This document shows, piece by piece, positions 45,363-55,820 of a stretch of DNA of 64,000 bases. Within the stretch, counting starts at the first letter, position 1, and each line of letters opens with the position of its first letter. Source of the stretch: an uncultured delta proteobacterium (lineage in GTDB: Bacteria; Myxococcota_A; Polyangia; Fen-1088); assembly GCA_963737265.1 (NCBI GenBank), contig CAVTRY010000013.1, positions 160,001 to 224,000 on the forward strand, written 5' to 3'. Under the pieces are notes generated by a model. It saw only the letters and a list, made by a program, of their open reading frames with translations, made no database searches and was not told where the DNA came from. The position numbers were made by a program, and so were the translations under genes.

Positions 45363-46298
45363 ATGCATCGTCGCTCGCGCATCCTTCAACTGCTGTGCAT
45401 CACCGTTCTTGGATTCACCACGACGGCGCTGGCGCAGGAAATGTCCATGCCTCCGGCGGATTCCGCAGGCGCCACACCGGCGGCCGCTCCCGCGCCTGGC
45501 CTCGATAGCGGCGCCGTGCCGGCCGGCCAGGAAGCCGTCGCGACCGCGGCAACCGCCGAAACGGCGACGACCTTCGCTCGCTACGGGCTCGCGGTACGCG
45601 CGCGCTGGATTTCGGTGCCGAGTTGGCTGCTTGGCGCGTTCACCCAGAAGAATGTTCCGCTCTCGACCTACGGCTACGCCCTCGAAGGCTACCGTCGCAA
45701 GCGCGACAAGGACGACCATAACCGGACATGGGAGGTTTCCGTCGCCATCGGCTACCAAAACATGAGCCCGCCCGATGGTTATTGGCTGGGCACGGGCAAG
45801 GACATCACCAAGGATACGGATCTGGTCCAGTTTAAGAATTTCTCTCTCATCACCATGGATGCGGCTTTCATCTCGCGCCAGTACTTCAGCCCGTACTTCG
45901 GCATCCACTACGGCGCCGGCTTGGGGTTGGGCGTGGTGCGGGGAAAGGTGCTGCGCACGTCGGCCGAGTGCGACCCAACCACCGGGCAGTGCAAGATCGT
46001 CTTGAACCAGACGAGTCCGAAGACTGGCCAGCTCATAGTCTGCGGCGGCGCCGGACAGCTGGCGTGCATTGAAACCGACCTTTCCAACAGCGAAGGCAGC
46101 TACGACACCGGGCCGATCTCAAACGGCGGGCAACCCCATCGTTTCCAGGAAACCTCCATCCCCGGCGCGGTCCCCATCATCAATCTTTTCTTCGGCCTGG
46201 ATTTTCCCGTTCCCGATGCCAAGGGGCTCGAGTTCCGCATCGACGCCGGTTTCTACGACGCCTTCTTCGTCGGCGGCAGTGCCGGCTACTTGTTCTAG
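45363..46298 (+). CDS. Hypothetical outer-membrane beta-barrel protein
   Basis: RBS GGAGG, signal peptide, 'YGAGLGLG', C-terminal 'GYLF'. Confidence 0.75.
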   Translation: MHRRSRILQLLCITVLGFTTTALAQEMSMPPADSAGATPAAAPAPGLDSGAVPAGQEAVATAATAETATTFARYGLAVRARWISVPSWLLGAFTQKNVPLSTYGYALEGYRRKRDKDDHNRTWEVSVAIGYQNMSPPDGYWLGTGKDITKDTDLVQFKNFSLITMDAAFISRQYFSPYFGIHYGAGLGLGVVRGKVLRTSAECDPTTGQCKIVLNQTSPKTGQLIVCGGAGQLACIETDLSNSEGSYDTGPISNGGQPHRFQETSIPGAVPIINLFFGLDFPVPDAKGLEFRIDAGFYDAFFVGGSAGYLF

Positions 46299-48151
46299 TT
46301 CTTCCGCTTCATCGCCGGCGCATCGCCGACCGTGGAGCGAACCAGCACGCGGCTCTTGCCGCGCAACACGTCGAGCGACAGTGCCGAGCCAGGATTGGCC
46401 GAAGCGATGAACGGGCGCAGCTCGTTCGCGCGCGAAAATAGTCGGCCGGGCACGCCGAGGACAATGTCGCCCGGCCGCAGGCCTGCCGCGGCCGCTGGCG
46501 TGCGTGGCGCGACCGACGTGATCTGTGCGGCACCGTCGGCCAAGCCCAGGCTGCCGCGACGGCCTGGGCCGAGCGGGATGAAGGTGATTCCAAGCCAACC
46601 CGGCTTGACCATGCCGGCGCGCCGCTGATCCTCGGCGAGAGGCGGGAAGGAAACCTTGGCCGGCTCTGCCATGCGCGGTGGGGTGGGCGGAACTGGCAAG
46701 GCCAAGTCTTCGCAGCGGGTGAGCGCCTCGACCGCCTTGGCTAGGCTCGCGTGCTTCTCGATCCAAACCCGGCCGGCGATCGACGTGAACACGAAGCGCA
46801 TGCGCAGCAGCGCGGCCAAGCGGATCTCGGTGCGATAGCTGATCTCGTCGGTCGTAGAGAGCGCCGCGACCAAACGGTTGGCCTCGGCCAGGCGTGCGGG
46901 CTGCGACTCGACCGTCGGTGCCAGCTCGGCGAGCAAGGACAGCATGAGCTCGCGCAACGCCTTGCCGTCGAGCCGGCGCAGGTTGCGTTCGTCGAGCCGC
47001 GTGCGCCAGCCCGGCCGACTGGCCAGGAACGTGTCCAGGTTGGCCTGGTTGAAATCGCCGAGCGCGCCTTCCCAGGTCTTTCCGCGCGCATCCAGCTCGT
47101 CGAGAAACGCCATGAGCTCGCTCTCGCGCTGGTCGAGCTCGACCAGCGTGGCCGGACGCGGAGTGTTGTAAGCGACCGCAATCTGATCGATGAGCCGGCT
47201 GTCGTCGCGAAAGGCGCCGCTGGCCAGGGCCTTCCGGACCAAGTCGTCGGTGAAAGCAGACTCGCGCCCGGGCGATCCGGCAGCACGCGCCAGCAACTCG
47301 GCCAAATAGACGTCCGAGCTGCGCAAGGGAATGTCAGGGGTTTCGTCGCTGATCATCACCTCGGCGTGGGCCGCGGAAAAACGCCCGCGCCGGGCCAGCG
47401 CCGACAAGAATTCGAACGAATGTCCGATGCCCTTCTGCCCGCGCACCTCGGGATAGCAACCGTAGGCGGGACGGTCGGGCGTGGACGAAAAATAGCCGCA
47501 GGTCGCCCCGGTGGGAAAGGGCCGGTGTTCGCGCGCCTCGTGCAGATAGGCAAAACCGCCAGAAAAACACTGAGACATGAGCGACACCACGCGCACCGAG
47601 GGCGGCAAGGTCGCCAACAGAGCGCCCAGCTTGCGTGCCGAAACGGATTCGTGCTCGCCCCACAAGCTGATGCGATTGTCGAGCGGATCGCGGCGGCTCT
47701 GGCTGCCGTGATCGGTGACGTAGACGAGCAGGGTGTCGCCCGGGCGCAGGCGCGCGCGCAGCTCGGCCACGGCACGCGACAAGCTGGCCAGCGTGGCTGG
47801 ACGCAGATCGATGCCGGGCAGGACCGAATTTTCGTAGATCGCGGCGTCGCGCAGCAGCGGATCGATGCGCGTTCCTTGCAGCAGCCAGGCGTTCTCGGGT
47901 TCCGTTTCGCGCGTCGCCAGATCCGGCGCGGGATTGTTTCCATCGCTGGCCAGCACCACGAGGTGGTCGCGCGGGACACCGGCCGTCGCCAGGAGAGCGA
48001 CGAGCTGGCGCAGGTGTTCGAGGTGGGAGGCGAAGTTGTCGAGCTTGTCGCCGCCGCCGTTGATGGCGAGCACGTAGAGAGCGCCTGGGGTCGCCGCCCG
48101 CACCGGCGCGGCCAGGTTCAGGAGTGTTGCGATGAGAAGGAGGATCCGCAT
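46295..48151 (-). CDS. Secreted caspase-fold cysteine peptidase (C13/legumain-like) with a C-terminal PDZ domain
   Basis: Start 'MRILLLIA' with signal peptide, His 'YVTDHG', Cys 'SQCFSGGF', PDZ 'WLGI...PAAAAGLRPGDIV'. Confidence 0.8.
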   Translation of the reverse strand: MRILLLIATLLNLAAPVRAATPGALYVLAINGGGDKLDNFASHLEHLRQLVALLATAGVPRDHLVVLASDGNNPAPDLATRETEPENAWLLQGTRIDPLLRDAAIYENSVLPGIDLRPATLASLSRAVAELRARLRPGDTLLVYVTDHGSQSRRDPLDNRISLWGEHESVSARKLGALLATLPPSVRVVSLMSQCFSGGFAYLHEAREHRPFPTGATCGYFSSTPDRPAYGCYPEVRGQKGIGHSFEFLSALARRGRFSAAHAEVMISDETPDIPLRSSDVYLAELLARAAGSPGRESAFTDDLVRKALASGAFRDDSRLIDQIAVAYNTPRPATLVELDQRESELMAFLDELDARGKTWEGALGDFNQANLDTFLASRPGWRTRLDERNLRRLDGKALRELMLSLLAELAPTVESQPARLAEANRLVAALSTTDEISYRTEIRLAALLRMRFVFTSIAGRVWIEKHASLAKAVEALTRCEDLALPVPPTPPRMAEPAKVSFPPLAEDQRRAGMVKPGWLGITFIPLGPGRRGSLGLADGAAQITSVAPRTPAAAAGLRPGDIVLGVPGRLFSRANELRPFIASANPGSALSLDVLRGKSRVLVRSTVGDAPAMKRKN

Positions 48152-48211
48152 GTAAGCCTTGATCAGCGGCCAGCGCAGCTTACCCCATTCCGCTCTTGAA
48201 TCATCGCCTGA

Positions 48212-48800
48212 CGCCGGCTGGACAGCGGACGCGCGCTGGCCGAAATCCAGCAGCTCACCCTGCAAAGCAAGCAGCTCGATATTCAGCACGACGATCTGCT
48301 GCGCGGGATGTTCGGGGCACTGACCACGCTGTCGAAGCTGGCGAAGAACGGCGACCAGGCGCGGAGCTTGCGCAACCAACTTTTCCCGCTGGGATTGAGC
48401 CACAACAACAAGAGTCACTTGGCCGAGGCCGGTCACGCCGCCGCCGTGGCCACCGCCATGACCGACGACCAGCTCACATTCCTGAAGTCGCTGCCATTGG
48501 ACGATTCGACCATGTTCGATCTGCACAACCAGTGGCAGAGCGTCTCCACGCAAATGGGAGCCGTGGAAGAAAAGCGTGCGCTGCTCAAACACCCCTCGAA
48601 GACCTTGGCGGCGCAAACCCAGGCCGCCCGTCGCGAATGGATCCGCTGGACCAAGATCCTCGTGACCACCGCCGAGAACGCCGGGATCGGCCCCGCGGAC
48701 GACGCCCTGCTCTTCGCCCCCTTGCGCGAAGCCATGCAAAAGGCCGACGATCGGTGGAGCAACAGCCCCAAGCCAACACCTCCGGCGCCTGCCCCATCCA
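48212..48800 (+). pseudogene. 5'-truncated helical hypothetical protein
   Basis: Coding-like frame 'ALAEIQQL...DIQHDDLLRGMFGAL...LFPLGLS...ARREWIRW' with an in-frame TGA just upstream and no start codon before ATG 48308. The 3' end runs into the tandem repeat. Confidence 0.5.
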
Positions 48801-48884
48801 GAAGTAACAATGTAGAGGCCGCGAGGCCGGGCCCCAGGGGAGGCGGTCTTTCTTCCCCGCGATTTCAAGGAGATCGCCTCCCCG

Positions 48885-49269
48885 ACGCGGCCTTCCAACG
48901 CGTCGGTCCACGAAAACCCCGTACGACGCAGCCTTGGCGAACGTATACGTCCAGCGAAGCCACGTCCCACGCAGCCTTGGCGAACGTATACGTCCAGCGA
49001 AGCCACGTCCCACGCAGCTCTTTCCAACGCGTCGGTCCACGAAAGCCCCGTACGACGTAGCCTTGGCGAACGTATACGTCCAGCGAAGCCACGTCCCACG
49101 CAGCCTTGGCGAACGTATACGTCCACCGAAGCCACGTCCCACGCAGCTTCTTCCAACGCGGCGATCCACGAAAGCCCCGTACGACGTAGGCTTGGCGAAC
49201 GTATACGTCCAGCGAGGCCCCATTCCACGTAGCTTGGGTCAACGTACACGTTCACCGAAGCCACCTACC
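48885..49269. repeat. Tandem array of nine ~43-bp units arranged as (ABB)x3, a 129-bp higher-order repeat
   Basis: A units start at 48885, 49012, 49141 (ACGCAGCTCTTTCCAACGCGTCGGTCCACGAAAGCCCCGTACG). B units start at 48926, 48969, 49055, 49098, 49184, 49227 (ACGCAGCCTTGGCGAACGTATACGTCCAGCGAAGCCACGTCCC). The first A unit is 41 bp. Confidence 0.95.
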
Positions 49270-49500
49270 ACGTGGCTTCAGTGCGTGCGGCGTTCGCAGC
49301 CCCTCGACCGGTGATATCCAGCTGCCTGGCAGCGTTTTGTTATCGTCTTATCAAGCTTGCGCGCACGCCAATCCGAGGCGCCAGCAGTGGAATGGCAAAC
49401 CTCCCCAAAGTCGAACCCCGCGAAATCACGGGCAGACCGTCTCCGTCCGCGCCTGAAAGCTTGCGAGACGCTCGCAGGAATATTGGGGTACTCTTTGCAG

Positions 49501-49520
49501 GCTAATAGTAAGTTCGACGG
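49501..49520 (+). other. Putative integron attI-like site (start of the cassette array)
   Basis: GCTAATAGTAA-GTTCGACGG. The core GTTCGACGG is the exact reverse complement of CCGTCGAAC, which opens the first attC. No attC hairpin precedes it. Confidence 0.6.
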
Positions 49521-49543
49521 ACTGTGGACAAAGCGAACATTGA

Positions 49544-51133
49544 ATGATCACGAAGTTTCTTGATATTGAGACGACGTCAGACCACGATCGCTTCCAAGCG
49601 TGGCGGACCGAGCATCAGGACGGTGCCGTCCTGATGCTCGAACGCGGATCGAGCGCGAGGCTTCACGGTGTTCGGTGCACCCATTTCGGTAGCGGTCCGC
49701 CATACTTTTCCTCCACCGACGGATTTGGGTCTCTGACGTCCAAGCCAAAGGTGTGTGGCTTGGAATCCGAGCTCATTGAGTGGGCTGCCCAGAACGGTAT
49801 CGTTCTCAATGGCTGCCAACACTGCATCCGCGACGGACTGATAGGAGCGCTTGAGGACGAGCCAGAATTGGAGCAGCAGGTTTCCGAGGCGGAAACGGTT
49901 CTGGTGCGACTACTTCCGGATGCAAAGGATCGTTCACTCGTCCTGAAGCGCCTTCTGGACTCCGCCACAATGGCGGACACAACAGCACCGAACGCGTGGG
50001 GCGTTACGATGTTCTCCGACGGGTTTCGTCTCAACGTGGGCCAAGTCGAAGTCCTGGTCCTCGGCGAACAAACCCTCCGGGTGAACCTCCTCACGGATCT
50101 CGGCGTGCCCCCCGCCGTTGGGCCTTGTTTTGCGGCAACGGCGTATCAATCGATGCCCGAATCCCAATGTGCATTTGTGGGCACCGTCCAGGAATATGCC
50201 GGGATGGAAGCCGCGATAGCTGCTGCTCACGAAGCATTCGTAAGGCGCGCCGCCTCGACGCAGTCGGGCGAGGCACGTGCGGGAACCCCTTTCCGTCGAA
50301 GGCATGAGGGCATCCTGAAGCTCGCCCGCAGAACTCTTGGGCTGGCCGAGGACGGTGCGACCACTCGAAATGATTACGTCGCGTACCATAGCGTGGCCGT
50401 GATGGGTTACCCGTTCGTGCCGAACGACGACGGCAGAATCACGTTCCTGACCACCAAATCGGAAGGGGTCGTGCGCCGAGTCCTGGGCAATACCGTTTGG
50501 GTAATCTCAGGCGAGCGTACAGCGGCCAAGACTCGCTATCAGCTCCATGGCAGGTTTCGACCAGACGATCTGGCTCGGGGACAAGACGCATGGAAAATAT
50601 CGGGGCCGGGCGTGTCCCTCCCGGATCCCGTTGATGTGACCGACGAGCCTTGGTTTCGTGAGCTCCTCGACGAGCAGGCCAACTTCAGCCTTGGACTGAA
50701 TCGGATCCGCTCATTGAGTATCCTCTCGGCGCTTGACTCGATGTTTGGTAAATCTTTGGGCTTTCCCGAGGAAAGGTTGCCAGACGAGGTCCCTGAAGGC
50801 ACGTATCGAGAGGGACAAGGGGTGCAGATTACAGTCAACCGGTACGAGCGCGACGCATCCGCTCGCGCGGCCTGCCTCAGGCACTTTGGGCCAGTTTGCC
50901 AAATATGCAGAGTCGATCTGTCCACCATCTACGGACCAATCGCCGCTGGACTTGTTCACGTCCATCATCTGCTACCACTTTCCCAAGTTGAGGAGCAGCA
51001 TGAAGTCCGGCCTGACCACGATTTGATTCCCGTTTGTCCCAATTGCCATGCCGTGGTTCATCGTCGCGATCCGCCCGTGACGCCAGATGAGCTGCGCGAA
51101 ATGATGGCGCAGACCGGGGCGAGTAGACCGTGA
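49544..51133 (+). CDS. Multidomain HNH endonuclease (McrA-like; candidate modification-dependent restriction), cassette 1
   Basis: C-terminal 'YREG...VNRYERD..AR..CL......CQIC...VHH..PLS...DLIPVCPNCHAVVH'. Confidence 0.85.
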   Translation: MITKFLDIETTSDHDRFQAWRTEHQDGAVLMLERGSSARLHGVRCTHFGSGPPYFSSTDGFGSLTSKPKVCGLESELIEWAAQNGIVLNGCQHCIRDGLIGALEDEPELEQQVSEAETVLVRLLPDAKDRSLVLKRLLDSATMADTTAPNAWGVTMFSDGFRLNVGQVEVLVLGEQTLRVNLLTDLGVPPAVGPCFAATAYQSMPESQCAFVGTVQEYAGMEAAIAAAHEAFVRRAASTQSGEARAGTPFRRRHEGILKLARRTLGLAEDGATTRNDYVAYHSVAVMGYPFVPNDDGRITFLTTKSEGVVRRVLGNTVWVISGERTAAKTRYQLHGRFRPDDLARGQDAWKISGPGVSLPDPVDVTDEPWFRELLDEQANFSLGLNRIRSLSILSALDSMFGKSLGFPEERLPDEVPEGTYREGQGVQITVNRYERDASARAACLRHFGPVCQICRVDLSTIYGPIAAGLVHVHHLLPLSQVEEQHEVRPDHDLIPVCPNCHAVVHRRDPPVTPDELREMMAQTGASRP

Positions 51134-51140
51134 GAGCGCC

Positions 51141-51308
51141 GTCGAACAAGCCGTTGCAGCTGACAAGGGCCGGTCAACTCTCGGTCGGCGGTCAACGAGC
51201 CGGGGCCGCGCGGCTCACAACTGAACGGTCGGCCGCCGCGCGGCCCCGGCAGTGCTACTATCGACCATCCCCTACCGGCCCTTGCAGCTGAACGGCAAGG
51301 CGTTCGGC
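51141..51308 (+). other. attC site 1 (168 bp)
   Basis: R'' GTCGAAC, L'' GTTGCAGC, long imperfect palindrome, L' GCTGAAC, R' GTTCGGC. Confidence 0.9.
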
Positions 51309-51356
51309 GGACGATCGCAAATTGCGGGGCAGGTACGTCGGTAGTAATGTTCTCGA

Positions 51357-51773
51357 ATGGGAAAGAAGGACAAGACTACTGCCGCGCTCCTGGCGATACT
51401 TCTTGGAGGGCTTGGGATTCACAAGTTCTATCTGGGACGCACTCTGCTCGGCGTGGTGTACTTGGTTTTCTGCTGGACATTCATCCCCGCAGTCATCGGA
51501 CTCATTGAGGGAATCATTTTGCTCAGCATGAGCAAGAAGAACTTCGACCTTGACTACAATCCACTCTCAGTTGCCGAGCTCCGGCAATTGGCGATGGCCC
51601 AGGCGGCTTCCGCTCCCCAGCACCTCCCGAACTCCGGGTATTCGTTCACCAACCCGGCGATGGGGCGCATCGAGAAGCTCCAGGCACTTCAAGCACTGAG
51701 AGCGTCGGGAGCTCTTTCAGATGTGGAATTCGAGACCGAGAAGAAAAGGCTGTTGGCTTCTGAGGGGCCATAG
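51357..51773 (+). CDS. TM2-domain membrane protein with a C-terminal SHOCT domain, cassette 2
   Basis: 'KDKTTAALLAILLGGLGIHKFYLG' (TM2) and 'LQALRASGALSDVEFETEKKRLL' (SHOCT). Confidence 0.9.
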   Translation: MGKKDKTTAALLAILLGGLGIHKFYLGRTLLGVVYLVFCWTFIPAVIGLIEGIILLSMSKKNFDLDYNPLSVAELRQLAMAQAASAPQHLPNSGYSFTNPAMGRIEKLQALQALRASGALSDVEFETEKKRLLASEGP

Positions 51774-51790
51774 GCGGCTGTGTTTCCGCC

Positions 51791-51864
51791 GCCTAACAAG
51801 TAGGCGTTGAACCCGACCGTCGGCCGCAGACGGCCGCCGGCGGGTTAACGCCAAGGCGTTAGGC
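51791..51864 (+). other. attC site 2 (74 bp)
   Basis: GCCTAAC...GCGTTGAACCCG...CGGGTTAACGC...GTTAGGC. Confidence 0.9.
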
Positions 51865-51874
51865 GGACAGGTTC

Positions 51875-52180
51875 TCAGTGATGAATCTTGGGTCCGCGAC
51901 GTCGACGCGCACCCCACAGCGCTCGGACAAGAACCTCGCCGTGATCGAACGTGTAGTACAGGTGGCAGTCGATCTTTTCGAGATATACGCGACGGAGTCC
52001 AGGTGTTCTCGACTGGCCGTACTTCGATCCAGCAGCAGGAAGGATCTCCAGGATTTGTAGCGCGTGTTCAATCTCGTCTGCAAAAATCGCCTTCTCATCG
52101 CGGTTGGCGAGCCACCATTCCTTCTCCCGCTGGGCGTGGCGCTGGGCGGTCGCGGTGAAGCGAATACGACGTCGGTTCAC
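51875..52180 (-). CDS. RelE/ParE-family toxin, cassette 3 (antisense to the array)
   Basis: 'IRFTATAQRH...P.AGS...LRRVYL......LYY......VLVRALW..RR'. 4-nt overlap with the antitoxin. Confidence 0.85.
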   Translation of the reverse strand: MNRRRIRFTATAQRHAQREKEWWLANRDEKAIFADEIEHALQILEILPAAGSKYGQSRTPGLRRVYLEKIDCHLYYTFDHGEVLVRALWGARRRRGPKIHH

Positions 52181-52401
52181 AACGAGCGTAGATCGCTGAG
52201 CACTTCTTCCGCGTCCACGAGCCGACCAGCAGCTACGTCGAGATCCGAATCGCGAAGCGCTGCGTGAAGCGCGGCGCGGTCGGCACCGTCCAGCCAGTCA
52301 GCCGATACCAACGGCAGCAGTTCGACCTCGGTACCGTCGGGCAGATCGCTCGGCTCATCGAACACCAAACGTCCAGATCGGACCTTCGCCTTTAATGTCA
52401 T
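52177..52401 (-). CDS. Putative antitoxin, cassette 3
   Basis: 74 aa directly upstream of the toxin. 'KAKVRSGRLV....DLPDGTEVEL' and 'DVAAGRLVDAEEVL'. Confidence 0.8.
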   Translation of the reverse strand: MTLKAKVRSGRLVFDEPSDLPDGTEVELLPLVSADWLDGADRAALHAALRDSDLDVAAGRLVDAEEVLSDLRSL

Positions 52402-52427
52402 GAATCAACGGTAGCACTCGGCATGCC

Positions 52428-52501
52428 GCCTAACAAGTAGGTGTTGAAGCGCTCGATCGGCCGCAGACGGCCGCCCGCAGCTTAACGGCAAGGCATTGCC
52501 G
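52428..52501 (+). other. attC site 3 with a degenerate R' box
   Basis: GCCTAAC...GTTGAAGC...GCTTAAC...; R' reads ATTGCCG instead of GTTRRRY. Confidence 0.75.
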
Positions 52502-52648
52502 ACGAGCGGTGATCGCGGCATGAGTTCCAGTCGCATGCTATCTTCCAGGCATGGGTTCCCCCAGCCTGAAGCAGAAGCGTTCGGCGGACGGGATCCCCAA
52601 CGAACGCGTCGTTGCTCTTTTCGAGTGGATCCGGTACTCATCGAACTG

Positions 52649-53389
52649 ATGAGTAGCAGCGAGAAGAGCATTGCGGCCTATGAGAACGAGGCAAGGGTTG
52701 CGTCGTACGACGCAGACATGGAAATCATGCACCCTAATCGCCATCGCATGGCCGAGATCATTGTCGAGGTTCTGAGTGCCTCAGCACGCGAGCCGAAGCT
52801 TGTTGTCGACCTTGGCACCGGAACCGGATTTCTTCTTGAAGGACTGCTCTCGCGATTTCCCGAGCTTCGAGCCATAGCTGTGGACGGAGCCCAGTCGATG
52901 ACCGCTCTGGCCCAGGCTCGGTTGAAGGAGGCCGCAACGCGGGTGGATTTTCGTGTGTGCGACTTTCGTTGCCTTGCTGACGTCTGCTCCGATTTCCGGT
53001 CTGTGGATGCTGTGGTCTCGACATTTGCTCTGCACCATTTGACTGCTGAAGAAAAAGGCACGCTGGCGCGACATGCGTTTTCGATGCTTGCACCTGGCGG
53101 GTGGTTCCTGTGCGGTGACCTCGTGCTCAGCCGCGATCAGCATCTCGAGGCACTGATTCAGCGCATGCGGGTGCGTGGAATAGTTGCCCGCGCTGCCGGG
53201 AAGGATCCGCGCTTTGGCGACGAAATGAAGACGCGCGCTTCTCTTGATCGGATTGAGGAGGAGGATAATGATCAGCCTCAAGATCTCGCGAGTGATTTTT
53301 CGGGAATCAAGGCGGCGGGGTTCCAGCACATCACAGTGCTGTGGCAAGAAACGCGCGAAGTTGTCTTTGGAGGAATGAAATGCGCGTGA
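52649..53389 (+). CDS. Class I SAM-dependent methyltransferase (CmoA-like fold), cassette 4
   Basis: 'VDLGTGTG', 'STFALHHL', 'LAPGGWFL..D'. Confidence 0.88.
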   Translation: MSSSEKSIAAYENEARVASYDADMEIMHPNRHRMAEIIVEVLSASAREPKLVVDLGTGTGFLLEGLLSRFPELRAIAVDGAQSMTALAQARLKEAATRVDFRVCDFRCLADVCSDFRSVDAVVSTFALHHLTAEEKGTLARHAFSMLAPGGWFLCGDLVLSRDQHLEALIQRMRVRGIVARAAGKDPRFGDEMKTRASLDRIEEEDNDQPQDLASDFSGIKAAGFQHITVLWQETREVVFGGMKCA

Positions 53390-53428
53390 TTGATCTGTAT
53401 GGTTCGTCAGATCCTGCTGGAGTCCGCC

Positions 53429-53486
53429 GCCGAACAAGCCGTTGAAGCTGTCGATCGGCCGCGGACGGCCGCCCACCGCTTAACGG
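53429..53486 (+). other. attC site 4, interrupted just after the L' box
   Basis: GCCGAAC-aagcc-GTTGAAGC...GCTTAACGG, followed by intron GTGCG instead of CAAGGCGTT. Confidence 0.85.
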
Positions 53487-53850
53487 GTGCGCCCAGCATG
53501 GGCGTCGTCTTGGGGGTGCAAGTCCCCCGAAAGGAGACCATCCCAATTGAAGCGAACTGCAACTGCGAAAGGGCGACCAATCGTGGGGAGGAAGCCGGGA
53601 GCGAAACCGCGGGCCGATGAACAAAAACCGGATAGAAGGCGGCGCCGAGCGGGGCGAGAAGTCAGCAGAGGTCGTAGTAGCGAAGTCGAAGCCGGCGCGG
53701 CAATTCACCGACACCGGAAGTCTTTGGCGATGCGAAGGACCGAACGAGAAGGAGAGCGAAACGAACATGCATCTCGTGGGCAAACGGCCTCAGATGACCA
53801 GGCAACTGGAGCTGCCGCTAGACGCGCGGGGAGCCGGCGAGCAAAGCTTG
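53487..53850 (+). mobile_element. Truncated group II intron, class C (5' part: DI-DIII and the start of the RT ORF)
   Basis: 5' GTGCGCCCAGCATGGGCG, 'GGTGCAAGTCC', 'GAAGTCAGCAGAGGTCGTAGTA', 'GCGAAGGACCGAAC', then RBS and 'MHLVGKRPQMTRQLELPL'. No RT core and no DV/DVI. The 3' boundary is approximate. Confidence 0.88.
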
Positions 53851-53901
53851 CCGCGAGCCATCGCGGGAAGGGGAAGGTATGGAAACCCGTCCAGGGAATG
53901 T

Positions 53902-55820
53902 CTACAGCCCGAGCTCGGCCAGTGAAATGGGCGGCAGGTATTCACCGACGCGCTTGCGTTTCCACCAGGCGCCGGTCGCGCGCCGCTCAGCGGATTCGGT
54001 GAAGTCGTAGCGGTAGGTCTCGGCGCGGAGGTATCGCGGTGGATGTTCCGGAAATGGATTTCTTGCCAGCAATCCGAGAACTTCCGGCGACCCTTGCAAT
54101 AGGCGAATGCAGAAATTCACGAACCACCGGTTGTTGCGATAGCTGCCGAGCGCCGCGAACCACATTTGCCAATCGAGCCGCGGCTGATGGGGCGCCACCC
54201 ATCCCGGCCGCCGATTCATGTCGCCCGGCTTGTATTTGAATTCGTAGGCAAGCCAGCTCACGCGGTCGTCGCTGCCCTCGACGATGATCTCTCGCCGTTC
54301 GGTGGTCATCACGGCGAACAGGCCATAGCCGCTGACGGTGCGAAACGGCAGCAGCCAGTCGTCGGCGACCTCCAGCGGCGAAAGCCAGCGCGAATCGGCG
54401 CCGAGGCTTTGGCTGATGTGCAAACATGAGATGGGCACGAAGACGACCGCCACGCATAGAGTCGCGGCGCGATGCCACCGACGTGTGTTGGCGGAAGGTA
54501 GCTGGCCAGGTGGCTGGCCGGTGCCGCCGAGAAAACCCGACAGCCGGCGCGGCAGGAGTCTTCGCAGAGCAAAATCATCGAGCAGTAACAGGCAAAGCGC
54601 CAGGGTGAGCAGATTGAAATAGGTGTAGTTGCCGGTGAGGAGAATCAGAAGCTGTAGTCCAACCAGCAGGAAGCAACCGAGCAGCCGGGGCCGGCGGGGC
54701 GCGAAGATGAGAAACGGCACACCCAGCTCGACCGCGAACATGAACGCGCAGCTCGTCTTGTGCCACCACAGCGGCCATTGATTCGCATACCAGGCGAGCC
54801 ACGTCGGCAGCGGCTGGGTTTGATAGTGGAATGAAAGCGCGGTGAGGTTGCGCCAGTTGGGGTCGCCACTCGACAGCTTCACGCAGCCCGAGGAGAATAT
54901 CAATTTGAACAAGAGCAGCCGCAACAACCACAGCGCGAGCCGCGATGGCGGCGTGGTCCGGGAGGATCCTGGCCACAGCTGCCAGGGTGCGAAGAAGATA
55001 GCGAGAAACCCTGTTTCGAGCAGCAAGTTGTCCCACTGGAACCCGAGAAACTCGCGCCCGACGACCGCCAGCGACAGATAGAGCATCCAAAGCAGGACGA
55101 GGCACGGCACGGGCGCAACGCCCACAATCAGGGCAATGGCCAATACCATACCGCACCCGCTGCACATTGCAAATGGAGAAAGGCGTCGGATGAATTGACC
55201 CAGCTCAAAGTCGGTAACAGACGAAAGCGTTCCAAGCCGATCCCTTGCAGGTCGTACTCCTTCGCAACGGCCGCGATGAACCGGTCGACGGGCAGGATGC
55301 CGTCGTGACCCATGAGGCCGCCGACCTGAGTCCACAGCGAAAGGAATGCTAGGAGGTAAATCGCGCCCAACACGCGCAGGAAAAGCCATCGCGCAAGGAT
55401 CTGCGTCGGCTGCTCCACATGTCGGCCCCAAAGCCAGCGCGTCAGCGACGAAAAGAACCCGCGATGGCTCGCGACCACTCGGTACGCCACTTCGGCTGTT
55501 CTCGCGAAGGTCGGCGAGACTTGGTAAGCACGCAGTGGCCAGCGACGGTGGGGCGCGTAGGCCGTCGCGCGGAACACCGCTTCGGCGCCGGAGTAAACCC
55601 AGCCGTCGGCTTCGATAAGCTGCACGGCGATGTCGAATTGCTCGCGGGGAATTTCGGGAAATTGCGTGTGAATGCGCGGATCCTGCGCGGGCAGATAGTC
55701 CACTGCGGCGCCAGTCATTTGCTGCCAGCGCCGAATCCACAACGAACAGAAATCGCAGTCGCCGTCGTACACCATCAGGGGCTTGACGGGCGGCGAGGCG
55801 ACGCGAACACCGCAAGACAT
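53902..55820 (-). pseudogene. DCC1-like thiol-disulfide oxidoreductase fused to a lipase maturation factor (LMF) domain, frameshifted at about 55150
   Basis: 'VYDGDCDFC' (DCC1); LMF motifs 'FQWDNLLLETGF', 'HYQTQPLP', 'PHQPRLDWQMWFAAL'. A 5-bp tandem duplication ATACCATACC (55143-55152) breaks the frame. Confidence 0.85.

What the first reader, a model, noticed from the sequence alone, without database searches (positions are those of the whole stretch)
53429..53850. Group IIC intron inserted in the top strand of an attC, at an unusual position
Seen: intron GTGCG starts immediately after ...GCTTAACGG, at the base of the attC L''/L' stem. This is 6 nt before the expected R' GTT and in the same orientation as the cassettes. 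Known: characterised IIC-attC introns such as S.ma.I2 enter the bottom strand at TTGT/T in the R'' region, opposite to the cassettes. Inferred: a different attC-targeting mode with IBS1 near ACGG, possibly an independent IIC lineage. The copy is dead: DI appears internally deleted at GGGGCGAG|AAGTCAGCAG and the RT is lost, and the array ends here.
Basis: partly seen in the sequence, partly recalled or inferred. Interest (0 to 1): 0.75.

Follow-up and report, generated by a model that had tools for sequence, protein, structure and literature searches.

The report
Dead sense-strand intron splitting an attC
A decayed copy of a self-splicing retroelement (class C group II intron) sits in an integron recombination site on the gene-sense strand, and intact sister copies show that its lineage finds this spot by a five-base RNA-DNA match, unlike the textbook integron introns.

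Summary
At 53487 a group II intron 5' end (GTGCG) follows ...GCTTAACGG, the L' arm of the fourth attC of a + strand cassette array.

The same genome has four intact 1886-nt copies. Three lie at the same place in other attCs (...GAACGG|intron|CAAGGCGTT) and one follows a plain hairpin.

The window copy is dead. It lacks 141 nt of domain I, lost between 9-nt direct repeats and including the EBS1 loop. It stops at intron nt 470, keeping 47 nt of the RT gene, against a REP-like repeat.

The EBS1 loop CCGUU pairs with AACGG. In relatives the loop changes with the target:
- AAA-type loops sit behind terminator T-runs.
- UUA or UUC loops sit at ...TAA| or ...GAA| in 11 attCs of another species, 3 nt upstream.

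The encoded protein is class C (best solved match GsI-IIC RT). It is 79% identical to terminator-seeking introns and 39-41% to two classic bottom-strand IIC-attC introns, whose TTGT|T junctions I checked.

One top-strand IIC case was published in 2012; I saw only a citing passage. This scan has noted sense-strand attC introns on other DNA, mostly in R'.

Verdict: a real relic of a retargeted class C sublineage, and a new variant of a known kind.

The parts
49512..53486 (+). Cassette array without an integrase in the window. It has a lone GTTCGAC start (49512-49518) and four cassettes: a 529-aa protein with no family match, a TM2/SHOCT protein, a ParE-type toxin pair on the - strand, and a methyltransferase. 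The attCs lie at about 51141-51308, 51791-51866, 52428-52500 and 53429-53486.
   Evidence: DNA folds
53429..53486 (+). The 5' part of the fourth attC, which is the intron's 5' exon: R'' GCCGAAC 53429-53435, L'' CCGTTGAAGC 53439-53448, L' GCTTAACGG 53478-53486. The expected CAAGGC + R' GTTRRRY is missing.
   Evidence: compared with filled and empty attCs
53482..53486 (+). IBS1, AACGG: the last five bases of the L' arm, complementary to the EBS1 loop CCGUU of intact copies.
53487..53658 (+). Intron nt 1-173 (5' GUGCG and the first part of domain I), 96% identical to the intact copies.
53650..53658 (+). Deletion scar. A single CGGGGCGAG stands where the intact intron has two copies 141 nt apart. 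The lost piece holds the EBS1 hairpin (intron nt 173-188).
53659..53813 (+). Intron nt 315-470: the end of domain I through domains II-III into domain IV, 93% identical. It includes the ATG of the RT ORF at 53767 and only 47 nt of that ORF.
53823..53896 (+). A copy of a dispersed REP-like element of about 80 nt with two hairpins. It abuts the truncated intron and is not intron or attC sequence.
53902..55815 (-). Flanking convergent gene for a lipase-maturation-factor-like membrane protein. Homology with sister species starts here, so the array and the relic are not syntenic with them.

Best explanation
The stretch is the dead relic of a class C (IIC) group II intron from a lineage, found here in one bacterial genus, that retrohomes into the top (cassette-sense) strand of integron attC sites.

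Shown:
- The intact element is 1886 nt, runs GUGCG...GAU, has domains V and VI with a bulged A, and encodes a 457-aa RT-maturase without an endonuclease domain.
- It sits between ...AACGG and CAAGGCGTT..., at the 3' foot of the L''/L' stem and 6 nt before the R' GTT.
- A cassette that is 99.86% identical over 698 nt carries this attC empty on one contig and filled on another.
- The loop of a domain I hairpin (GCCCGUUG) is complementary to AACGG. That loop changes together with the 5' exon across relatives.

Inferred:
- The intron RNP treats the folded top-strand attC hairpin as its relatives treat terminator hairpins.
- It pairs EBS1 with the last five bases of the stem and EBS3 with the following C.
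- It reverse-splices into single-stranded DNA at a replication fork and is copied by its RT. This is the established route for endonuclease-less IIC introns.
- Because it lies in the sense orientation, cassette transcripts can supply intron RNA.
- The insertion separates L' from R', so it should disable that attC for the integrase.

The window copy later lost 141 nt of domain I by slippage between 9-nt repeats. It also lost everything beyond nt 470, together with the rest of the attC, next to a REP-like element.
For: Copies. There are four intact copies in the same genome. Three are identical over 1886 nt and the fourth differs at one base.

Junctions. 5' exons ending in ..(G/T)AACGG in attCs were seen at 7 sites: G000 x4 including the window, G001 x2 and G008 x1. 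Of these, 6 also show the 3' exon CAA(G/A)GCGTT; the window's 3' exon is lost. One further site shows only a 3' junction (G004, CGAGGCGTT).

Empty and filled attC of the same cassette.

EBS1 hairpin: Rfam alignment and fold.

Covariation of loop and target:
- CCGUU goes with AACGG at the 6 attC sites that retain the loop. The intact copy behind a plain hairpin carries the same loop against ..ATCGG.
- AAA(U/C)-type loops go with T-runs in G006 and other relatives.
- UUA goes with TAA| in 2 of 2 cases and UUC with GAA| in 9 of 9 cases in G010.

Class C:
- The protein has RVT_1 and GIIM domains only.
- The best solved relative is GsI-IIC RT at 442 bits, against 129 for LtrA.
- Of the 73 related loci with a 5'-end call (one of them invalid, L069), only 2 are in attCs. 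Nearly all the rest follow a hairpin with a T-rich tail.
- Domain V is 87-89% identical to that of the classic IIC-attC introns.

Separate from the classic IIC-attC introns:
- 39-41% amino-acid identity, against 79-87% to the nearest kin.
- Clade supports of 99/98 and 100/99.
- AU test p 3.6e-6.

Strand bias. G000 holds 21 empty top-type and 26 empty bottom-type AACGG|C sites. Four top-type sites are occupied and no bottom-type site is.

Public contigs. In 4 of 4 runs, contigs that match the attC up to 53486 go on with CAA(A/G)GCGTT (17 loose ends).
Against: - One of the 4 intact copies (C14) follows a plain hairpin...GGCCGGCTCATCGG|, so the element is not strictly attC-specific.
- IBS1 lies inside the predicted stem rather than after it. 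It would have to be melted, and nothing here shows how.
- The bottom strand offers the same AACGG|C. The 4-to-0 bias (6-to-0 with one site each from G001 and G008) is only modest statistically, and the sites are not fully independent.
- The first AU test (65-row quick tree) did not reject a clade with the classic IIC-attC proteins (p 0.23).
- A crude count by longest ORF gave 2 cassettes with and 4 against the assigned top strand, against 4 to 0 in a stricter scan. I rely on the Pfam-supported genes.
- The extra base of the L box would be C on the bottom strand, not the G seen in the classic attCs I compared.
- No splicing or mobility was measured.
- Several flanks of the intact copies share identical segments, and the assembly has 7.6% contamination. 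Some 'copies' could therefore be strain variants of one locus.
Confidence: 0.85

Rival explanations
1. There is no special targeting mode. An ordinary terminator-seeking IIC intron lands in attC hairpins by chance because they resemble terminators, and the AACGG match is incidental.
For: Nearly all relatives sit behind terminator-like hairpins. One intact copy in this genome sits behind a plain hairpin with only a 3-4 bp match. IIC introns need only a hairpin and a few paired bases (PMC4424553, passages read).
Against: All 7 attC 5' junctions in three genomes share one position and one 5-nt match. The loop differs from that of the terminator-seeking kin exactly at the pairing bases. A second lineage shows loops UUA and UUC matched to TAA| and GAA| in 11 of 11 attC sites. 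In G000, 4 of the 5 copies are in attCs, although attCs are a tiny share of the genome's hairpins.
Confidence: 0.09
2. It is a member of the classic IIC-attC lineage and the strand was mis-assigned: the + strand here is really the bottom strand.
For: R'' and R' are reverse complements, so the core motifs alone cannot tell the strands apart. The crude longest-ORF count was 2 with and 4 against the assigned top strand. The + strand carries a G as the extra base of the L box.
Against: - Five of the 6 Pfam-supported cassette genes run with the + sense.
- The lone GTT site is at the left end of the array.
- The extra base is on the 5' arm, and the long spacer CAAGGC before GTT resembles the classic attCs.
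- The target is ACGG|C, not TTGT|T.
- The protein is only 39-41% identical to two classic IIC-attC proteins.
- AU test p 3.6e-6.
Confidence: 0.03
3. The junction at 53486/53487 is secondary: a deletion or a mis-assembly that fused an attC to an unrelated intron fragment.
For: The copy is rearranged elsewhere, with an internal deletion and a truncation at 53813. The intron is a multi-copy repeat, which assemblers handle badly. No public contig spans the whole relic.
Against: The same junction, to the base, occurs in 3 intact copies here and in 3 copies in two other genomes, and those 6 have the matching 3' exon. The window copy is 4-7% diverged from the intact copies, so it is not a collapsed repeat. 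One contig of run X3 covers 53779-53864 across the 3' truncation, with 8 mismatches.
Confidence: 0.03

Closest known systems
Group IIC-attC introns (S.ma.I2 type). Examined here: two K. pneumoniae class 1 integron copies, L049 (after blaIMP-26) and L050 (after arr-2).
   Same: They are class C introns with an RT-maturase lacking an endonuclease domain. They use a folded attC strand as the hairpin part of the target and a 4-5 nt IBS1 plus a 1-nt IBS3. They split an attC. Domain V is 87-89% identical.
   Different: The classic introns lie opposite to the cassettes, on the bottom strand, at ..ATTGT|T inside R'' (PMC3001079 abstract and introduction; PMC7923331 background). This one lies in the cassette sense, on the top strand, at ..AACGG|C at the foot of L', 6 nt before R'. 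The proteins are 39-41% identical and fall in separate clades.
The 'unusual' group IIC intron of an Enterobacter cloacae integron (Rodriguez-Martinez, Nordmann, Poirel, J Bacteriol 2012).
   Same: [quoted passage not shown]
   Different: I could not read the paper and did not find the element in the plasmid collection. Its exact position in the attC, its EBS1 and its relation to this lineage are therefore untested. The present lineage is chromosomal, environmental and multi-copy, and it has ORF-less derivatives.
Terminator-targeting class C introns (B.h.I1, GsI-IIC type).
   Same: These are the nearest relatives by sequence. GsI-IIC RT is the best solved match. Related loci with 58-79% identical proteins nearly all sit after a hairpin with a T-rich tail. 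Size and domain layout are the same.
   Different: Their EBS1 loops are AAA-type and match T-runs. Here the loop is CCGUU and matches the L' arm of the host's own attC family.
UHB.I2, a group IIB1 intron just downstream of an attC in a hypersaline metagenome (PMC7923331).
   Same: It has the same orientation as the cassettes and is associated with an attC top-strand hairpin (passages read).
   Different: It is a different intron class (IIB, CL1 protein). It sits after the attC rather than inside it, and its flanking exons are not conserved.

Membership tests
Group II intron, class C (IIC) | Boundaries 5' GUGYG and 3' AY, with domain V and a domain VI carrying a bulged branch A 7-8 nt from the end | tested here: met
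   Intact copies run GUGCG...CCCCUAUGCCGAU. The fold gives a 32-nt domain V hairpin with a 2-nt 3' bulge and a domain VI with an unpaired A 8 nt from the end. The window relic keeps only the 5' boundary. The 'CGC triad' mark is recalled from memory, not tested.
Group II intron, class C (IIC) | The intron-encoded protein has RT and maturase (X) domains and no endonuclease domain, and groups with class C proteins | tested here: met
   The 457-aa protein has Pfam RVT_1 and GIIM only. The best PDB match is GsI-IIC RT (6ar1) at 442 bits, against LtrA at 129 and a IIB RT at 108. It groups with the classic IIC-attC proteins against two non-C outgroups at 98/95. No curated reference set of classes was available.
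Group II intron, class C (IIC) | Inserts after a DNA hairpin (terminator or attC) with a short IBS1 and IBS3 and no IBS2 | tested here: met
   Relatives follow hairpins with T-rich tails. Here the hairpin is the attC. EBS1 pairs with 3-5 nt. The absence of EBS2 was not tested.
Group II intron, class C (IIC) | Domain I structure recognised by a curated RNA model | tested here: met
   RF02001 scores 100.6 bits on each intact copy and 36.4 bits on the relic. RF01998 scores 34.6 bits, just under its cut-off of 35. No Rfam domain V/VI match was found at E <= 1.
IIC-attC intron lineage (S.ma.I2 type) | Inserted in the attC bottom strand, opposite to cassette transcription | tested here: not met
   The intron runs in the same sense as 5 of the 6 Pfam-supported cassette genes and as the array polarity. 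The two classic examples are opposite to their cassettes.
IIC-attC intron lineage (S.ma.I2 type) | Target TTGT|T in the R'' region | tested here: not met
   The target here is AACGG|C at the end of L'. The classic examples read ..ATTGT|T.
IIC-attC intron lineage (S.ma.I2 type) | The protein falls in the monophyletic IIC-attC clade | tested here: not met
   The clades are separate (99/98 and 100/99). The AU test rejects a joint clade on the 32-row tree (p 3.6e-6) but not on the 65-row quick tree (p 0.23). Only two IIC-attC proteins were sampled.
Integron attC site (the target) | Imperfect inverted repeat R''-L''...L'-R' with RYYYAAC and GTTRRRY cores, an extra base in the L box, and single-strand folding | tested here: met
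   There are three intact attCs upstream, and the DNA fold z-scores are -7.5 and -4.3. The fourth attC lacks R' because of the intron and the later truncation. The third attC's R' reads ATT instead of GTT.
Integron attC site (the target) | Association with an integron integrase | tested here: inconclusive
   The window has no integrase. The genome has one full intI (TIGR02249, 456 bits, cut-off 265) on contig C17, 2.7 kb upstream of an intact intron copy, and fragments on C11 and C7. The window array is therefore an integrase-less cluster.

The most novel reading that the evidence does not exclude
attC top strands are a regular, repeatedly evolved home for class C introns in chromosomal integrons. 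A change of 3-5 nt in the EBS1 loop retunes a terminator-seeker to the L' arm of the host's own attC family, in at least three registers: ..AACGG|, ..GAA| or ..TAA|, and ..TTAT|. ORF-less mini-introns of 672 nt then spread through the arrays, with 8 copies in one species.

The strand choice would follow from sedentary arrays keeping their bottom strands on the leading-strand template, which leaves top strands single-stranded at forks. Such sense-strand introns would freeze neighbouring cassettes together.

Because the same element also sits behind ordinary gene hairpins, recombination between copies could attach attC halves to new genes. That is a sense-strand version of the Leon-Roy cassette-genesis idea, which I recall from memory and did not read.
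Probability: 0.35. Interest if true: 0.75.

Novelty: new variant of a known kind. Interest (0 to 1): 0.6.

Why it matters
Integron introns are taught as a single lineage that enters the bottom strand of attC, opposite to the cassettes. This locus and its intact sisters show a second route, in the other strand and at another position, that can be read directly from the sequence.

The route arose inside ordinary terminator-seeking introns by changing a few loop bases to match the host's own attC family. That gives a natural series for studying how IIC introns combine hairpin recognition with very short base pairing. The series runs from AAA loops to CCGUU, UUA and UUC loops, with empty and filled sites in one genome.

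It also raises a testable link between intron strand choice and the replication polarity of chromosomal arrays. It identifies elements that must block attC recombination and so fuse cassettes. Full-length and 672-nt ORF-less forms in the sense orientation could also matter for cassette expression and cassette birth.

Tried and rejected
1. The 2012 E. cloacae paper and the two Leon and Roy 2009 papers are not held. Papers that cite the 2012 work added nothing. I did not find the E. cloacae element among the plasmid hits.

2. Literature searches:
- 'group II intron' + attC + integron: 28 papers.
- attC + 'top strand' + intron: 18 papers.
- 'group IIC' + integron + Myxococc: 0 papers.
Apart from the one passage in PMC7923331, none of the listings or passages I read describes a IIC lineage homing to attC top strands.

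3. Independent origins of the three top-strand registers. The tree backbone is unresolved. An AU test did not reject one clade for all five top-strand rows (p 0.245). I make no claim of multiple origins.

4. The first AU test against the classic IIC-attC proteins (65-row quick tree) was not significant (p 0.23). The 32-row careful tree gave p 3.6e-6. I report both.

5. Replication polarity by GC skew. The skew agrees with 'intron strand = leading-strand sequence' on C17 and weakly on C7. It disagrees on C11 and is about zero on C13 and C14. This is inconclusive.

6. Cassette polarity by longest ORF gave 4 to 0, then 2 with and 4 against. Codon-position GC did not separate the strands. I replaced these counts with the Pfam-supported genes. 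Of the 20 ORFs scanned in those two calls, only 4 had a family match.

7. Synteny. Orthologues of the flanking gene exist in G001, G002, G008 and G012, but nothing upstream of it is shared. The state before the truncation could not be rebuilt.

8. Public runs. The best holder has 0.32 of the sampled words, and all four runs laid are short contigs. No contig spans the whole relic. Parts without cover say nothing.

9. Rfam found no domain V/VI family match at E <= 1 in an intact copy. Those domains were read from a fold and from identity to the classic introns.

10. EBS3 was not located.
Full report
**What is in the window.** On the + strand, 49512-53486 is an integron-type cassette array with no integrase nearby.
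- A lone GTTCGAC (49512-49518) starts the array.
- Four cassettes follow, each ending in an attC: about 51141-51308, 51791-51866, 52428-52500, and 53429 onward.
- The intact attCs fold as single-stranded DNA into the usual bulged hairpin, with z-scores of -7.5 and -4.3.
- The fourth attC reads R'' GCCGAAC, L'' CCGTTGAAGC, loop, L' GCTTAACGG. At 53487 the sequence turns into GTGCGCCCAGCATGG.
- The repeat finder puts the three short attCs in register. The last one departs from the family exactly after TTAACGG, where the others continue CAAGGC(G/A)TT.
- Rfam finds a group II intron domain I model at 53567-53728 on the + strand (RF02001, 36.4 bits, gathering score 32). Nothing else above threshold was found in the 64 kb.

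**The intact element.**
- The genome that holds the window (G000, 25 contigs) has four full copies, on C17, C14, C11 and C7.
- The copies are colinear for 1886 nt. Three are identical and one differs at one base.
- Each runs GUGCG ... CCCCUAUGCCGAU.
- Each scores 100.6 bits on RF02001.
- Each folds into a domain V hairpin with a 2-nt bulge, and a domain VI with an unpaired A 8 nt from the end.
- Each encodes a 457-aa protein with RVT_1 and GIIM domains only.
- The best solved relative of the protein is the GsI-IIC reverse transcriptase (6ar1, 442 bits, E 1.7e-131). This is far above LtrA (129 bits) and a IIB enzyme (108 bits).
- These features meet the tests I could apply for class C.

**How the window copy is broken**.
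- Window 53487-53658 equals intron nt 1-173 (96% identity).
- Window 53639-53813 equals intron nt 296-470 (93% identity).
- The intact intron has CGGGGCGAG at nt 165-173 and again at 306-314. The window has it once, at 53650-53658.
- Homology stops at 53813, which is 47 nt into the RT ORF (ATG at 53767).
- Positions 53823-53896 are a copy of a two-hairpin repeat of about 80 nt. The blastn scan found it at 12 other places in the genome, three of them in tandem on C21.
- A convergent gene for a lipase-maturation-factor-like protein ends at 53902.
- Sister species share that gene but nothing upstream of it.
- No attC-like site follows in the window.
- The copy has therefore lost its EBS1 hairpin, its RT, domains V and VI, and its 3' exon.

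**Where the lineage inserts.**
- Three of the four intact copies have 5' exons that are attC arms ending ...CTGAACGG, and 3' exons reading CAAGGCGTTAGCC, CAAGGCGTTCGAC and CAAAGCGTTGGGC. The intron therefore lies between L' and the 6-nt spacer before R'.
- The fourth copy (C14) follows a plain 8-bp GC hairpin...GGCCGGCTCATCGG|, with 3' exon CCGTGCAG.
- Two other genomes of the same genus show the same junction. G001 has a full-length copy, 89% identical, on C7, and a 351-nt relic with both exons on C2. G008 has an ORF-less derivative on C10 (intron nt 1-553 joined to 1465-1886).
- G004 shows a 3' junction only, CGAGGCGTT.
- A cassette of 698 nt that is 99.86% identical occurs twice in G000. 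On C11 its attC is empty (...GCTGAACGG^CAAGGCGTT). On C7 it is filled at exactly that point.
- In four public metagenome runs, 17 contig ends that match the attC up to 53486 continue CAA(A/G)GCGTT. Empty attCs of this type therefore exist in nature.

**How the site is read.**
- In the Rfam alignment of the intact copy, a hairpin GUGG-GCCCGUUG-CCAC occupies intron nt 173-188. It is also the minimum-energy fold of that stretch.
- Loop bases CCGUU are complementary to AACGG. That gives five pairs at the attC sites and three or four at the C14 site (..ATCGG).
- In an alignment of domain I from 13 copies, the loop changes with the 5' exon.
  - The attC copies of G000, G001 and G008 have GCCCGUUG.
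  - Copies in G006, G014 and G035 that sit behind terminator-like hairpins ending in T-runs have GCAAAUGA, GCAAACGA, GCCGAUGA or CCAAGUGC.
  - The fit is not perfect. G016 and one G006 copy pair at only 2-3 positions.
- A second lineage in G010, about 70% identical in DNA, occupies 11 attCs. All are in the same sense, but 3 nt upstream, at ...TTAA| or ...CTGAA|, with 3' exon CGGCAAGGCGTT in most.
  - The 2 copies at TAA| have loop GCUUAUGA.
  - The 9 copies at GAA| have loop GCUUCUGA.
  - Eight of the 11 are ORF-less elements of 672-673 nt.
- One more attC top-strand case..CAGCTTAT|, appears in a titled locus from another phylum (L062).

**Which strand is the top strand.** R'' and R' are reverse complements, so they cannot decide this. 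I used four lines of evidence.
- Array polarity. The left end has only a GTT box complementary to the first attC's R'', as an attI-side boundary would.
- Gene polarity. Seven of the ORFs I scanned in or beside cassettes had a Pfam match. Five cassette genes run with the assigned top strand: TM2/SHOCT and methyltransferase in the window, FRG in L149, AAA_21 in L147 and RDD in L150. One cassette gene runs against it, a ParE toxin, a kind of cassette often found reversed (recalled). The seventh is an IS110 transposase, also against it, which I set aside as an inserted IS.
- Hairpin geometry. The extra base of the L box lies on the 5' arm, as in the two classic attCs I examined.
- Spacer. The longer spacer CAAGGC lies before GTT, again as in those classic attCs.

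Against this assignment, a crude longest-ORF count gave 2 with and 4 against, and the extra base would be C rather than G on the bottom strand.

**Comparison with the classic introns, tested here.**
- Two K. pneumoniae plasmid integrons carry IIC introns opposite to their cassettes: blaIMP-26 | intron | qacEdelta1, and arr-2 | intron | aac(6')-Ib.
- Their junctions read ..GAATTGT|GTACG and CCCGAT|TAGAAA or |TATGCA. This is TTGT|T within R'' on the bottom strand, as the literature states (PMC7923331 background; PMC3001079 abstract and introduction).
- Their proteins are 40.9% and 38.6% identical to this one, and 56% identical to each other.
- By contrast, 80 related loci from public genomes have proteins 58-79% identical to this one. 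A 5' end was called in 73 of them, one call being invalid (L069). Only 2 (L062, L103) lie in attCs. Nearly all the rest follow a hairpin with a T-rich tail.
- Trees:
  - This family is a clade (99/98).
  - The two classic proteins form another clade (100/99), grouped with two Firmicutes plasmid introns (97/87).
  - G000 and G001 (100/100) sit in a starred set of four rows (96/94) with L056, which is behind a terminator, and L059, whose 5' end was not found.
- An AU test on the 32-row careful tree rejects G000 + G001 + classic as one clade (p 3.6e-6), and also all attC-associated rows together (p 2e-11). The same question on the 65-row quick tree was not rejected (p 0.23).
- Whether the three top-strand registers arose separately is open (p 0.245; the backbone is unresolved).

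**Strand choice.** The bottom strand of these attCs also carries AACGG|C, as the reverse complement of ..AAGCCGTTG... G000 has 21 empty top-type and 26 empty bottom-type sites. All 4 occupied sites are top-type, and the count is 6 of 6 when one site each from G001 and G008 is added. So something beyond the five pairs matters.

One candidate rests on a review passage saying that attC bottom strands of sedentary chromosomal integrons lie mostly on the leading-strand template (PMC8946536). Top strands would then be the ones exposed on the lagging-strand template, where endonuclease-less introns are thought to insert (PMC4424553 passage). GC skew in this fragmented assembly could not test this.

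**Precedent and novelty.** PMC7923331 states that one unusual IIC intron, not of the IIC-attC lineage, in an Enterobacter cloacae integron lies in the attC top strand in the cassette orientation, citing a 2012 paper that I could not read. The same paper describes a IIB intron just after an attC in the sense orientation.

This scan's own notes list 46 earlier findings in at least 40 genomes that mention IIC or other introns in attC top strands. In the 8 summaries shown to me, the insertions are mostly inside R'. These are unchecked leads. They suggest the habit is widespread but barely in print. The notes found by protein similarity to this element describe ordinary terminator-seekers.

What is particular to this case:
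- the position, at the foot of L', 6 or 9 nt before GTT;
- the readable loop-target covariation;
- the nesting inside terminator-seekers;
- the empty and filled pair;
- the ORF-less mini-introns.

I class it as a new variant of a known kind.

**Limits.**
- No splicing, mobility or recombination was measured.
- EBS3 was not found.
- IBS1 lies inside the predicted stem, and how it is opened is unknown.
- The assembly is a draft with 7.6% contamination, and the flanks of some intact copies share identical segments. The number of independent insertions in G000 may therefore be lower than four.
- The reference set for intron classes was small.

Noticed in passing
window 53823-53896; also G000 C21:168658-168874 (three tandem copies, 84-nt period), C16 (3 copies), C11, C22, C15, C12: A dispersed REP-like element of about 80 nt with two hairpins (..GGGGAGCCGGCGAGC-TTTG-GCTCGCCGCG..ACCATCGCGGGA..GGGAACCC..GGGTTCCC). 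One copy abuts the truncated intron. Sister genomes carry long tandem runs of it.
   Followed up: partly
L037, L147, L148 (G010 contigs C15 and C16): Eight ORF-less mini-introns of 672-673 nt, with a complete ribozyme-like 5' part and domains V/VI but no RT gene. They occupy attC top strands at ..CTGAA|CGGCAAGGCGTT in one species, alongside full-length or truncated copies.
   Followed up: partly
window 52494-52500: The R' of the third attC reads cATTGCC instead of GTTRRRY and does not match the R'' of the next cassette's attC. This is a mutated or recombined cassette boundary.
   Followed up: no
window 49000-49300: Five tandem copies of a 43-nt unit (61-88% identical) at the 5' end of the 989-aa PDZ-domain ORF (46295-49264, - strand), just left of the array start.
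   Followed up: no
window 49544-51133: The first cassette encodes a 529-aa protein with no Pfam match at E <= 0.01. An earlier first-reader note calls it an HNH nuclease candidate. I did not test that.
   Followed up: no
G000 C17:94995-96890, C11:1166346-1168241 and C17:100007-101267: A 1.9-kb segment is 100% identical between the stretches just upstream of two intact intron copies, and a 96.7% copy lies downstream of one of them. Integrase fragments lie about 3 kb upstream of the C11 and C7 copies. These are either paralogous integron heads or strain variants in the assembly.
   Followed up: partly
G000, 24 places (e.g. C11:492583, C12:14560, C14:238095): An identical 75-nt end sequence followed by AACTGCAACGCGTT recurs on many contigs. 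It looks like the terminus of a multi-copy insertion sequence.
   Followed up: no
L039 (G006:C7:17361-17582) and L046 (G000:C11, about 1197594-1197663): Further intron debris. L039 holds a mini-element of 62 nt of 5' end plus 89 nt of 3' end behind a terminator. L046 holds a 3' fragment of a third intron variant followed by CAAGGCCTTGCG.., next to an attC in a G000 array.
   Followed up: partly
L097 at about 3945 and L114 at 1643 and 1815: In two titled loci a second intron 5' end lies right after another intron's 3' end (L097), or two 5' ends with identical flanks lie 172 nt apart (L114). These are tandem or nested insertions.
   Followed up: no
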